A stretch of 64,000 nt of DNA from Malacoraja senta (taxonomy: Eukaryota), in the NCBI GenBank assembly GCA_038087875.1, contig CM075990.1, forward strand, positions 5,954,001 through 6,018,000, given 5' to 3'. Position 1 is the stretch's first letter. Every line of letters starts with the position of its first letter. This document shows, one piece after another, positions 2,131 to 63,811 of this stretch. A program made the translations under genes and the position numbers. The notes under the pieces were generated by a model, which worked only from the letters and a program-made list of their open reading frames with translations, had not been told where the DNA came from and made no database searches.

Positions 2131-2588
2131 AATCCTTGTTTACGCAATCACTTTCACATTTATCACAGAATCTTGTAAATCCATACTACACACTCTCCAA
2201 GGCTAATATGTTTCGCTCAAAACATGTTACCTAGATTTAAAAAAAAGAATCTCTAGGATAGAGTGTCACTATCAAGGCCGATATTTATTGGCAATCTCTA
2301 AATGGTGAAGAACCGCATCCTTTTACTGCTGAAATCTCTCTGATGAAGGGTCTCCCTCAGTGTTTTTGAGTAGGGAGCTCCAGGACTGAGAATCTATAAA
2401 GGAGAATTAATATATTTCCAAATAAAGAAATGTGCGACTTGCATAAAAGACTTTCAGCTAAGTATCATTTTTATGTGCCTACAGAGTTTGTTCTTCTGGT
2501 TGGTAGAGGTCATGGGTTTGGTAAAAGGGGTCAAAGTAACCTCATTGATTGCAGTTGGACAAAAAAGCTGGAGAAACTCAGTGGGTGA

Positions 2589-2893
2589 TAGCCCTGTCCC
2601 ACGGTACGAGTTCATTCCAAGAGCTCTCCCGAGTTTAAAAAAAATCAAAAACTCGTGGTAAGCACGGAGAATGAACGTAGCGGGTACGTCGGAGCTCGGG
2701 GACGTCTCTTAGCGGCTCGTAACATTAACGGCAGGTAAGCATGGGAAGACTCGTGAAGATTTCTCAACATGTTGAAAAATGTCCACGAGAGCCCCGAGTA
2801 CCGACGAGTGGCCATGACCGTAAATCTCCGAGTTCGTATCAGGGCAAACTCGGGAGAGCTCTTGGAATGAACTCGTACCGTGGGACAGGGCTT
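2589..2893. mobile_element. Harbinger/PIF-type MITE
   Basis: 47-bp perfect terminal inverted repeats (agccctgtcccacggtacgag...), 3-bp TSD TGA, no ORF. Inserted in a Penelope-derived repeat. Confidence 0.85.
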
Positions 2894-3389
2894 TGAGGCA
2901 GCATCTATGGAGCGAAGGAATAGGCAACGTCTCGGGTCAAGACCATTCTTCAGACTTCTCGATCCGAAACATCACCTATTCCTTCATTCCATAGATGCTG
3001 CTTCACCCACTGAGTTTCTCCAGCTTTTTTGTCTACCTTTGATTTTTCCAGCATCTGCAGTTCTTTCTTAATCATCGATTGGAGTAATGTGTTCTGTTGT
3101 GTTTTAAGAAAATATTCATCTTTGGGATTTTAATATTGCTAGCAGGGTCAGCATTTATTGCCCATCCCTTAGAGTATTACCCTTGAGAAGGAGGCGAAGT
3201 ATGGCATTGTTGAACTGCAGCAGCCCGACTGGAAAAGGTACTACCATAGTGCAGTTAGGCCAAGAAACAATTGGATTTGGACCAAGTAAAAATGATGAGT
3301 CAGTGATATATTTCCATGGTAGGATTCAGTGCAACTGGAATGGTATCCTGCTGGTGATGCACTTGCTACCCTTCTCTTTCCAGGTGGGA

Positions 3390-3990
3390 GAGTTTAGTTT
3401 ATTGTCACGTGTACCAAGGTACAGTGAAAAGCTTTTGTTGCGTACTATCCAGTCAAAAGACAGACAATACATGATTACAATTGAGCCATTACAATGTACA
3501 GATACATGATAAAGGGATAACGTTTAGTACCAGGTTACGCCAGCAAAGACCAATCAAGGATAGTCTGAGGGTCACCAATGAGGTAGATAGTAGTTCAGCA
3601 TGCACTCTGGTTGTGGTAGGATGATTCAGTTACCAGATAACAGCTGGGAAGAAACAGTCACTGAAACTGGAGGTGTGCGCTTTCACACTTCTATACCTTT
3701 TGCCTGATGGGAGAAGGGTGCAACTCATTCTTGATTATGCTGCTGGCCTTGCTGAGGCAGCATGAGGTATAAATGGAGTCAATAGATGCAAGGTTGGTTT
3801 GTGTTTTGGTCTGGGCTGTGTCCACAATTCTCTGCAATTTCTTGCGGTCTTGAATGGAGCTGTCTCAAACCAAGTTGTGATGCATCCTGATAAAATGCGT
3901 TCAATGGTGCATCTGTCGAGGTTGGTGAGTTGTAGGGGACATGCTGAACTTCCTCAGCCTTCTAAGGAAGTAGACACGTGGGTATGTTTG
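3390..3990 (-). mobile_element. Degenerate Rex1/Babar 3' fragment
   Basis: Minus-strand remnants RVYFLRRLRKFSMSP and a 3'UTR ending aataaactaaact. Related tails at about 22915-23190, 13360-13920 (+), 33300-33930 and 35570-36210 (+). Confidence 0.65.
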
Positions 3991-62019: not shown

Positions 62020-62286
62020 TACAAGAGAAAGGTTAATTGAGAAAACATATTGTGAACTATTTGCCTCCAGGTGGGTTTGGTCTAATGATCTTCACACTGT
62101 TCCCTTTGTGCAAAAGCATTTAACAAGCTGGGGGAAATATTCCAAATTCCCTTTCACACCTGTTTTGTAGGTGTTTACCTTCACAACATTATTTGATGCG
62201 CTTCAGATTTGAGTCAGAAGAAGGGTCTCAACCTGAAATGTCACCCATTCCTTCTCTCCAGAGATGCTGTCTGTCCTGCTGAGTTA

Positions 62287-62760
62287 AGTGCCTGTCCCAC
62301 TGTACGAGGTAATTCAAGAGTGGATACTCCATGTATCAGTGCGAGTAACCTCATTGGTCCCTTGTTTGCGTACACAGGAGTAAGCTCCACTGCCCGCTGT
62401 CCTGTTATCCATCGCCCGCTGACCCACTCCGCTCTATGATCTTTGCTCTTGAGCTGGTCCCCTCAGTGTTCAGACGGAGAGCACTGCCAGAGGTGAGCAG
62501 GCCGGCAGAAGGCGCTGAGGTCCTGCGGCCGCTCGCAGCCACCCGAGCTGCTTCCCTCCCCGGCCACAATGCGGTGGCTCCGCGCCCGGAGCGCCACGGC
62601 AACGGTAAGTGAGCGAGTTGCTGGCATGAACCCCGACTCCCTCCTTCTCAAAGCTCCTGCCCTCCCCACATCTTTACCGCTGGCTAGTCTCACCACAAGC
62701 TGTGAAAGGAACTCTTCCCCTAATTGGTCCCTTGAACTAATATTAGTATAAACTTATTAA
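62287..62760. mobile_element. Left end and GC-rich interior of a Harbinger-type element (right TIR not found)
   Basis: tta|agtgcctgtcccactgtacgag..attcaagag resembles the TIRs at 2589 and 54801, and it interrupts a Penelope-end repeat at gctgagtta. Confidence 0.55.
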
Positions 62761-63626
62761 TTCACTCATTCATTCATTCATTATAGTCATTCAATAAGAT
62801 CACAACTGATTCAACTTGTGCTCCCGTTTTTCCCACCATCTCCCCACCTGCCATCACCCGCCACCCCCCACCCATTCAGTAATTCAGAATGAAGGAGATT
62901 TGGAAGCCTTGGGCAAATAGAATTGTTACTTTCTTTATTTTTATTCTTTATGTTCACGGAGAGGAGAACAATCTGCGCATACGCGGTTTAAGATTTTTTT
63001 AAAGCCGTCTGACTGTGTACCCTGAGTAAATACTCATGGCACATGCCTGCATGTGTTGTATAATCTGCTTTACCATATACAATGTCCCAGGTAATAGGTC
63101 GTGTGTGAGATGTTCACTGTTTGCAAGAGGGACTGCCATTTTGCAAAAGGTGTCTTTCATGGAGCTCTTTTAGTCTTGTCCTCAGGTTTAGACAATACAG
63201 TTTAGACAATATTGTTCAAACAGGTGTGGACAATACCTGTTTCATAGGCTCAACCAAGAGGTTAGACTGTGGATGATGAGTAAGGCTCTTCCCTTGCTGC
63301 TCTCTGGCCTCAGTCTCATGACTCCCACACTCCAAGCCTCCTTGCTGCTTTTCCTCCTGCGCCAGTTTTTTGTCTTCAATTAACAAGGTTGTACAGCATG
63401 CAAAATGTGGTAATGAAGTCACCGCATCTACCTAGTGGGAACTGCAAGTAATTACATTTCGTCTCCGGTAACCTTTGGAATGTGACACTGTTGTTCTGGT
63501 ACTTTAATGGCTCTCGTTATATTTGTGTTCAGTAACTATTGAGTACACTGCATTGACTAGCCATGGTCAAGGATCATCACACCACGATACGTCCCTCAGG
63601 GCAGAACCTGCCATTAAAGTATAGGG

Positions 63627-63811
63627 TGTTAAAGAAGGAACTGCAGATGCTGGAAAATCGAAGGTACACAAAAATGCTGGAGAAACTCAGCGGTTGCAGC
63701 AGCATCTATGGAGCGAAGAAAACAGGCAACGTTTCGGGCCGAAACGTTGCCTGTTTCCTTCGCTCCATAGATGCTGCTGCACCCGCTGAGTTTCTCCAGC
63801 ATTTTTGTGTA
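63627..63811. mobile_element. Fold-back (palindromic) Penelope-end element with a 16-bp TSD
   Basis: Arms mirror around ggcaacgtttcgggccgaaacgttgcc. TSD ccattaaagtataggg at 63611-63626 and 63812-63827. Confidence 0.85.

What the first reader, a model, noticed from the sequence alone, without database searches (positions are those of the whole stretch)
2557..63811. Highly abundant Penelope-derived repeat carrying a minimal hammerhead ribozyme core
Seen: roughly 25-30 copies of a ~130-nt module, gtCTGAAGAagggtctcgacccGAAACGTCacc...gatgctgcctgtcccgctgagttactccagc...catctgcagttccttc. At 48001-48364 and 55531-55899 it lies directly downstream of a Penelope GIY-YIG C-terminus (EQHLIFRLGSL..MNxDFSxFK*), so it is the PLE terminal repeat rather than an ordinary SINE. 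Known: PLE terminal repeats carry minimal type I hammerheads (CUGANGA/GAAA/NUH) whose palindromic helix III suggests dimeric cleavage. The copy at 34319-34346 has all core nucleotides, an extra A before helix II and an ACGU palindrome. Inference: this is a ribozyme-bearing family amplified to SINE-like density. Helix I is only about 2 bp by eye, so activity is unproven.
Basis: partly seen in the sequence, partly recalled or inferred. Interest (0 to 1): 0.78.

Follow-up and report, generated by a model that had tools for sequence, protein, structure and literature searches.

The report
Penelope hammerhead relics; bonus CPEB3-like SINE
The repeat is the short end piece of a Penelope-like jumping gene carrying the known minimal hammerhead motif, mostly decayed and likely copied from uncut RNA, so it is a known kind; one separate small insertion in the window starts with a predicted ribozyme resembling the mammalian CPEB3 ribozyme and is the better lead.

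Summary
Observation confirmed: 43 segments at 31 loci, 6.1% of the window, none in shuffles. They are 5'-truncated Penelope-like (PLE) insertions. Two copies run into a GIY-YIG-type C-terminus. 8 of 31 loci have 10-16 bp target duplications. 3' ends fall in two classes 35 nt apart (the PLE tail), and 13 loci are inverted pairs, 12 with exactly one tailed arm. The core fits the published minimal PLE hammerhead (PMC4209133), but only 1 copy (34319) passes a strict descriptor. Helix I is 2 bp, helix II shows no covariation, and Rfam gives no hammerhead hit. One addition: 36 of 43 5' ends fall within -7..+22 of the core and none at the cleavage site (+29), so templates were likely uncut and copying likely stopped at the ribozyme. 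Verdict: new member of a known kind. Separate lead: a 183-nt insertion (50366-50548) with an 11-bp target duplication, high copy in three contig runs, begins exactly at G1 of an HDV-fold ribozyme that passes Rfam's mammalian CPEB3 threshold.

The parts
34319..34346 (+). Only strictly intact minimal type I hammerhead core (C3 = 34319; predicted cleavage after C34346); insertion 34315-34447 flanked by a short direct repeat
48000..48364 (-). 5'-truncated PLE end: endonuclease-like C-terminus 48364-48293, stop 48292-48290, 210-nt pyrimidine-rich pLTR ending in CAG, then a tail-less module with G8 mutated
   Evidence: 652 contigs continue the frame upstream as a PLE endonuclease-like peptide
55530..55899 (-). 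5'-truncated PLE end of a second subfamily: last 11 codons, stop 55853-55851, 189-nt pLTR, tailed module with G12 mutated; 13-bp target duplication at 55518-55530 and 55900-55912
14317..14570 (+). Decayed, frameshifted GIY-YIG endonuclease fragment whose end aligns by eye with the 48364 peptide; not physically joined to a module (another repeat and the N gap follow)
   Evidence: ESM features 0.94; GIY-YIG on 22-23% of cluster members; no Pfam hit
2558..3070 (.). Inverted pair; the minus arm is split by a ~310-bp insertion with terminal inverted repeats
8474..8654 (.). Inverted pair, tailed minus arm
15042..15227 (.). Inverted pair, tailed plus arm, short microhomology at the junction
28226..28382 (.). 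Inverted pair, tailed minus arm
35017..35196 (.). Inverted pair within a 15-bp target duplication
35684..35826 (.). Inverted pair, short minus arm
37507..37710 (.). Inverted pair, tailed plus arm
47672..47813 (.). Inverted pair with upstream pLTR as spacer; neither arm tailed
49355..49683 (.). Three-part locus: partial tandem of two minus modules with about 45 nt of pLTR between them, plus an inverted tailed arm
52955..53079 (.). Inverted locus (tail-less minus arm, tail-only plus arm) within a 13-bp target duplication
54406..54588 (.). Inverted pair within a 14-bp target duplication
58316..58489 (.). Inverted pair, tailed minus arm
63634..63810 (.). Near-symmetric inverted pair of a divergent subfamily within a 16-bp target duplication
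17554..62286 (.). Remaining single modules: 17554-17674-, 23906-24007+, 31727-31852-, 37829-37849-, 39135-39221+, 39780-39866+, 41508-41590-, 42362-42485-, 50154-50239-, 53942-54062- (11-bp duplication), 56067-56161+, 57666-57694- (13-bp duplication), 58002-58091+, 62212-62286+
50366..50548 (+). Separate element: 183-nt SINE-like insertion with an HDV-fold, CPEB3-like ribozyme at 50366-50422, a long hairpin body and an (AAG)n tail; 11-bp target duplication at 50355-50365 and 50549-50559

Best explanation
The repeats are short, 5'-truncated insertions of the terminal repeat (pLTR) of an endonuclease-bearing Penelope-like retrotransposon, carry the minimal hammerhead motif, and were likely reverse-transcribed from uncut RNA with copying likely ending at the ribozyme. 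Shown in the sequence: module downstream of a GIY-YIG-type C-terminus; target duplications; two 3' end classes 35 nt apart; inverted pairs with one tailed arm; 5' ends piled up at the core and absent at the cleavage site. Inferred, by analogy to the Anolis element PAc (PMC11167929): the element's protein nicks target DNA and primes reverse transcription at two internal RNA sites, here about 93 and 128 nt from C3. Synthesis usually ends in or just before the hammerhead. When both strands are primed, one at each site, the two cDNAs are joined head to head. The hammerhead of the master element would cleave only weakly and as a dimer, through the ACGU palindrome, perhaps with protein help. Dispersed copies are inert relics decaying neutrally.
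For: Link to the ORF end; 652 contigs in run X2 continue upstream of 48364 in frame into a peptide matching the end of the 14317-14570 fragment (agreement 0.62, translated by hand), and that fragment's three best Atlas clusters score 0.94, two of them carrying GIY-YIG on 22-23% of members. Target duplications of 10 nt or more: 8 of 31 loci against 0 of 930 mismatched flank pairs; 4 of the 8 enclose a whole inverted pair. 3' ends: 17 of 43 at 85-103, 0 at 104-118, 19 at 119-131, 7 below 85; medians 93 and 128; both classes also show as loose ends in public contigs. Published PLE traits match: an inverted 5'-truncated copy and a 30-40 bp tail often at one end only (PMC8557442, passages); a 34-bp repeat in D. 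virilis (PMC2377424, passages). 5' ends: 36 of 43 at -7..+22, 0 within 1 nt of +29; stop rate 32/597 against 6/1816 nt at +23..+70, and 24/548 for +1..+22 alone. Tailed and tail-less copies stop at the same place (medians +12 and +9, n = 19 and 17, p 0.66), so the stop follows position and not length. PAc also inserts from unprocessed RNA. The core matches the published consensus and the fugu Xena core.
Against: No full-length PLE could be mapped: no genome is held, and three protein searches found no PLE protein (one search gave 27 hits to the module's open frame, none examined as a PLE, and the four sequences read look like chance ORFs over insertions). The endonuclease assignment rests on decayed fragments with no Pfam hit. 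No Rfam hammerhead hit. No covariation: 82.1% of cells paired against 83.2% in shuffles, 493 of 500 shuffles reach the observed double changes; RNAalifold finds 0 pairs. The core is not clearly better kept than the body (229/244 against 2503/2759 non-CpG cells). The monomer prefers a rival hairpin (-11.4 against -4.2 kcal/mol) and the module folds no better than shuffles (z -1.0 to +1.0, 3 copies). Arms of a pair are not independent, so the p-values are overstated. 23 of 31 loci show no duplication of 10 nt or more. Ends at -7..-1 may partly mark where subfamilies cease to be alike.
Confidence: 0.8

Rival explanations
1. The module is a separate non-autonomous element with its own short RNA that starts a few bases before the core (a start site or a splice-acceptor-defined end); the PLE enzyme simply runs off the template end, and junction erosion gives the +1..+22 ends.
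For: Loose ends in all four runs (1,335, 1,562, 1,881 and 274 contigs at 49560) agree up to about CAG-UCUGA and then dissolve. 12 of 43 window segments start at -7..-1. A pyrimidine tract plus CAG precedes the core in 4 copies (75-78% C+T over 40 nt), like the D. virilis intron that ends at helix I.
Against: At least 5 window copies run on upstream into pLTR (42485, 47698, 48082, 49452, 55668). The ORF-end bin is 3-10 x 10^4-fold over single copy, so long copies are common. Upstream pLTRs differ by subfamily, which alone blurs the consensus. 24 ends lie inside the core.
Confidence: 0.12
2. Dimer self-cleavage is the working step: tandem pLTR hammerheads cut the RNA and the cut or circularised monomer is the template, as proposed for PLEs and retrozymes.
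For: All catalytic positions, the extra base, G10.1-C11.1 and the palindrome are in the family majority. A partial tandem exists at 49355-49576. Low dimer activity is reported for other minimal hammerheads.
Against: 0 of 43 5' ends at the cleavage site and 36 of 43 extend past it; 3' ends lie 65 or 100 nt beyond the cut site; PAc ribozyme mutants still insert in vitro.
Confidence: 0.06
3. The hammerhead look is chance or a dead vestige in an unrelated SINE that happened to land behind PLE fragments.
For: No Rfam hit, no covariation, 2-bp helix I.
Against: Two different pLTR subfamilies put the module at the same place behind the ORF end, one within a single 13-bp duplication; tail and inversion pattern are PLE traits; no tRNA gene in the window; the core fits the published consensus at every position.
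Confidence: 0.02

Closest known systems
Minimal hammerheads (min-HHR) in pLTRs of metazoan PLEs (Cervera and de la Pena 2014, PMC4209133; read: first two of four parts and parts of supplement 2)
   Same: CUGANGAH, G10.1-C11.1, GAAA-CG-UC palindrome; same core letters as fugu Xena; mostly single dispersed motifs, some in opposite-strand pairs; pLTR location.
   Different: Helix I 2 bp (3 or more in the vertebrate rows seen; 2 in D. virilis and Oikopleura); helix II 4 bp (5-7 in those vertebrate rows, 4 in Acropora Neptune); far denser than the 4,000-9,000 motifs given for coelacanth and Xenopus, though that count is of intact motifs. No shark, Callorhinchus, Leucoraja or Squalus entry in the two supplement files searched (file 1 not searchable).
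PAc, Poseidon of Anolis carolinensis (Frangieh et al. 2024, PMC11167929; read: first two of four parts)
   Same: Two internal 3' ends downstream of the hammerhead defining a tail; uncut RNA as template; both target strands cleaved and extended.
   Different: PAc's ORF starts at stem II; here the frame that is open across the module is not kept between subfamilies and no start was found. Clade (Neptune or Poseidon) not determined; the C-terminal motif looks Neptune-like from recall only.
D. virilis Penelope (PMC2377424, passages; PMC4209133)
   Same: 2-bp helix I, 34-bp tail, inverted terminal copies, intron ending at helix I (here only an acceptor-like pyrimidine tract plus CAG).
   Different: No splicing evidence or donor site shown here.
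Non-LTR retrozymes (bioRxiv 10.64898/2026.07.22.740005; read: part 1 of 5 and passages)
   Same: Non-coding, hammerhead-bearing, PLE-derived; reported in the one chondrichthyan sampled.
   Different: Retrozymes are head-to-tail tandems of complete hammerheads; these loci are singles or head-to-head pairs with truncated cores.
For 50366-50548: mammalian CPEB3 ribozyme (Rfam RF00622) and HDV-like ribozymes at 5' ends of non-LTR elements (R2, RTE, L1Tc/NARTc; PMC8256844 and PMC11620745, passages)
   Same: P2 and P3 letters match the Rfam CPEB3 consensus; G-U pair at the first base; C in J4/2; ribozyme at the exact 5' end of a retroposed unit.
   Different: Multi-copy mobile unit, not a single intronic site; P1 of 6 bp with different letters; two-pair P1.1; P4 short or absent.

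Membership tests
Metazoan PLE minimal hammerhead | Catalytic boxes CUGANGA, GAAA, NUH | tested here: met
   Family majority and copy 34319
Metazoan PLE minimal hammerhead | Extra base between 9 and 10.1; G10.1-C11.1 pair | tested here: met
   A in 19 of 20 segments covering it; pair G-C 12, G-U 5, other 4
Metazoan PLE minimal hammerhead | Palindromic 15.2-16.2 | tested here: met
   CG in the majority (C 27 of 36, G 24 of 36; losses mostly CpG-type)
Metazoan PLE minimal hammerhead | Helix I of about 3-5 bp | tested here: inconclusive
   2 bp only; 2-bp cases are published
Metazoan PLE minimal hammerhead | Compensatory changes in helix II | tested here: inconclusive
   None above shuffles in 30 window copies; post-insertion decay gives little power; needs subfamily masters
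Metazoan PLE minimal hammerhead | Self-cleavage as a dimer | not testable with these tools
   Needs in vitro assay
Rfam hammerhead families | Score at gathering threshold | tested here: not met
   No hit in the window or at E up to 10 in 34000-34700; not filed under these
EN+ Penelope-like element | Repeat lies downstream of a C-terminal GIY-YIG domain | tested here: met
   rests on fragments
EN+ Penelope-like element | 30-40 bp tail, often at one end only | tested here: met
   35 nt; 12 of 13 inverted loci have one tailed arm, 0 have two
EN+ Penelope-like element | Inverted 5'-truncated copies and partial tandems | tested here: met
   13 of 31 loci inverted; 1 partial tandem
EN+ Penelope-like element | Full RT-EN ORF between two pLTRs | not testable with these tools
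   No genome held; searches empty
Non-LTR retrozyme | Head-to-tail tandem of complete hammerheads | tested here: not met
   One partial tandem with damaged cores among 31 loci
tRNA-derived SINE | tRNA-like head | tested here: not met
   ARAGORN finds 0 genes in the window (a weak test for decayed heads); the module begins with the hammerhead core
HDV-like ribozyme (50366-50422) | P1, P1.1, P2, P3 nested pseudoknot with C in J4/2 | tested here: met
   P1 6 bp from G50366, P2 8 of 8, P3 3 of 3; P1.1 CC/GG and C50411 read from the sequence; P4 poor
CPEB3 ribozyme proper (50366-50422) | Single site in CPEB3 intron 2 | tested here: not met
   Multi-copy with target duplication; no recalled CPEB motif in six frames of the window (exons could lie outside)

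The most novel reading that the evidence does not exclude
The minimal hammerhead acts less as scissors than as a pairing and stop signal: its two self-complementary parts (ACGU and helix II) would join two element RNAs, a protein dimer would prime one from each internal site on opposite target strands, and both enzymes would halt at the paired ribozymes. That would explain why inverted arms meet at the core (10 of 13 loci, an 11th by the nhmmer boundary) and why exactly one arm has the tail (12 of 13). The numbers given are for this reading. Separate lead with its own odds: the 50366-50548 element belongs to a mobile family related by descent to the mammalian CPEB3 ribozyme, which would then be a domesticated retroposon 5' end (about 0.55 likely; interest about 0.7).
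Probability: 0.2. Interest if true: 0.7.

Novelty: new member of a known kind. Interest (0 to 1): 0.4.

Why it matters
The kind is known, so the catch is ordinary. Its use is as a natural experiment: the role of minimal PLE hammerheads is stated to be unknown (PMC7761336, passages), and a family this abundant lets one map insertion junctions against the cleavage site at scale. In this window the junctions point to uncut templates and a stop at the ribozyme. The CPEB3-like element may matter more: that ribozyme is described as a mammalian intronic element (PMC8233481, abstract and introduction), and a high-copy mobile relative in a non-mammalian vertebrate would make its origin directly testable. 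I found no such report in five searches, but subscription papers are not covered.

Tried and rejected
Whole genome: not held. DNA pattern scans for the module: metagenome 0 hits, then 4 hits with a 20-mer, none matching the profile; viral 0; prokaryote genomes 0. CPEB3-like pattern in viral contigs: 0. Protein searches for a full PLE: searches found none; one search gave one 12-residue viral match, not followed and taken as chance; one search gave no names or taxa. The frame open across the module was considered as the ORF start and rejected: hits are short unnamed ORFs and subfamilies differ by indels and replacement changes. A splice from the stop-codon region to the CAG was considered; no evidence, left open. 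No RNA holder was listed among public runs, which says nothing on expression. The last step crashed; intact cores were counted instead. AT-richness at 3' flanks was slight (63% against 59%, 14 ends) and is not used. The empty-site test for the 50366 insert found no spanning copy in the window (inconclusive). Lunse et al. 2017 is not held and is known only through review passages. A search for Penelope, hammerhead, truncation and twin priming found 0 papers; Penelope, hammerhead and shark found 4, one on topic. PMC11167929 supplements gave 0 hits for four terms; bioRxiv supplements are closed and may list this family.
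Full report
Setting. The window is 41% GC with one 200-N gap and is rich in LINE remnants: RT, AP-endonuclease and esterase ORF1 domains. It is a vertebrate by that content. I take it for a cartilaginous fish from recall of the repeats; no call tested this. No genome is held.

The observation. blastn gave 44 HSPs and nhmmer 39 hits, against 0 in 10 of 10 shuffles. 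An iterated profile gave 43 segments, 6.1% of the window, mean identity 84%, at 31 loci. Contigs of four public runs laid on 47950-50700 at 80% likeness give summed depth 2.2-4.5 x 10^5 times single-copy over a module in the three runs with a baseline. The tool warns this is no copy number; I use it as an order of magnitude.

It is a PLE end. Two minus-strand copies continue upstream through 210 and 189 nt of pyrimidine-rich sequence to a stop codon and a shared C-terminal peptide; the two spacers are alike only over their first 71 nt, so they are different subfamilies. In run X2, 652 contigs carry on beyond 48364 in frame. By hand translation this extension matches the end of a decayed fragment at 14317-14570, whose best Atlas clusters score 0.94 and include GIY-YIG-bearing ones. 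Pfam does not hit the fragments, and no full PLE protein was found. Direct repeats of 10-16 nt flank 8 of 31 loci, against 0 of 930 mismatched pairs. 3' ends are bimodal: 17 of 43 at 85-103, none at 104-118, 19 at 119-131, 7 shorter, medians 35 nt apart. Thirteen loci hold opposite-strand arms; 12 have exactly one tailed arm and none has two. Four of them sit inside one target duplication, so each is a single event. Inverted 5' copies and a one-sided 30-40 bp tail are published PLE traits (PMC8557442).

The hammerhead. The family majority reads CUGAAGA, A, GGGU-CUCG-ACCC, GAAA, CG, UC, with a 2-bp helix I. This fits the published minimal consensus and shares the core letters of fugu Xena (PMC4209133 supplement). 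Against activity today: one copy passes a strict descriptor and three a relaxed one, and both PLE-anchored copies have a catalytic mutation. There is no Rfam hammerhead hit, no covariation above shuffles in 30 copies, and no clear extra conservation of the core. The monomer prefers a hairpin that hides the 5' box. This is what neutrally decaying relics of a dimer-type motif would show, but it leaves catalysis untested.

What the junctions say. 36 of 43 segments start between -7 and +22 (C3 = +1); none starts within 1 nt of +29, the base after the predicted cut. With four run-on copies censored, the stop rate is 32 per 597 nt there against 6 per 1,816 nt at +23..+70, and 24 per 548 nt for +1..+22 alone. 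Tailed and tail-less copies stop at the same place (medians +12 and +9). So the template was likely uncut, as found in vitro for the Anolis element (PMC11167929), and the stop is set by position. Caveats: small n, paired arms are not independent, local alignment blurs ends by several bases, very short copies escape detection, and ends at -7..-1 may mark a subfamily boundary.

Mechanism. Shown: anatomy, duplications, two 3' ends, one-tailed inversions, 5' pile-up. Inferred: internal priming at two sites, priming on both strands for inverted loci, a stop at the folded ribozyme, weak dimer or protein-assisted cleavage in the master element. Rivals are a short separate RNA beginning near the core (0.12), cleavage as the working step (0.06) and chance (0.02). 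The boldest reading, that the palindromic ribozyme pairs two templates and halts both enzymes, is not excluded (0.2). One search for it found no paper.

Comparison. It works like, and is filed as, a metazoan PLE minimal hammerhead in a truncated pLTR. The full ORF and cleavage could not be tested; helix I length and covariation are inconclusive. It is not a retrozyme tandem and not an Rfam hammerhead member. Two earlier notes of this scan reached the same verdict for other vertebrate windows; these are not independent evidence.

A separate lead. The only Rfam hit in the window is the mammalian CPEB3 ribozyme at 50355-50421 (35.6 bits, threshold 35; E 8.5e-6 for the window). An 11-mer at 50355-50365 recurs at 50549-50559 behind an (AAG)n tail, so the insert is 50366-50548. 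Its first base is the G of a G-U pair opening a 6-bp P1; P2 (8 of 8) and P3 (3 of 3) pair, two C of L3 can pair with the GG after P1, and J4/2 holds a C; P4 is poor. The body folds as a long hairpin (z -3.5). There is one copy in the window, but depth is 3-18 x 10^3 times single-copy in three runs, and two of the three contigs listed for this element from other loci align from 50366, the third from 50361. A ribozyme at the exact 5' end of a retroposon is a known arrangement. The point of interest is sequence identity to CPEB3 in P2 and P3, where the fold fixes few letters (only six invariant bases per PMC8256844). The score is only just over threshold, it is one copy, and convergence is not excluded. 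Five searches found no report; PMC8256844 does mention CPEB3-related motifs in non-mammalian genomes found by structure.

Verdict. Observation confirmed, interpretation supported, new member of a known kind, interest 0.4. The junction pattern and the CPEB3-like element are worth following up.

Noticed in passing
window 50366-50548 (+): 183-nt SINE-like insertion with an 11-bp target duplication, (AAG)n tail and long hairpin body; it starts exactly at G1 of an HDV-fold ribozyme that passes Rfam's mammalian CPEB3 threshold, and is high copy in three contig runs. Possible mobile relative of the CPEB3 ribozyme; deserves its own follow-up.
   Followed up: partly
window 14317-14570 (+): Decayed, frameshifted PLE-type GIY-YIG endonuclease fragment, followed by another repeat and the assembly gap.
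   Followed up: partly
window 48080-48122, 55662-55703, 49447-49487, 42479-42519 (all -): Pyrimidine tract plus CAG right before the hammerhead, like a 3' splice site at helix I as in D. virilis Penelope; splicing would change helix I. No splicing evidence.
   Followed up: partly
window 2587-2895 and from 62287: About 310-bp element with terminal inverted repeats inserted inside a module; a similar end interrupts the copy at 62286 and occurs near 54803 and 55139. Likely a small DNA transposon.
   Followed up: no
window 42746-46352 (+): LINE with esterase-type ORF1 and a two-piece AP-endonuclease/RT ORF2 (Pfam hits).
   Followed up: no
window 59628-62081 (-) and 18695-20488 (+): 817-aa open RT frame with a weak zf-RVT hit (L1/Tx1-like from recall), and a 468-aa RT frame (Rex/Babar-like from recall).
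   Followed up: no
window 2896-3070, 63634-63810 versus 17554-17674, 35017-35196, 42362-42485: At least three subfamilies of the module, differing in the stretch after the core and in the length before the tail.
   Followed up: partly
window 34321-34357 (+): The 5' catalytic box and helix II strand can pair with the stretch just after the cleavage site, giving a more stable inactive hairpin; a possible off-switch in monomers.
   Followed up: partly
window 14790-14989: 200-N assembly gap 50 nt from an inverted pair.
   Followed up: no
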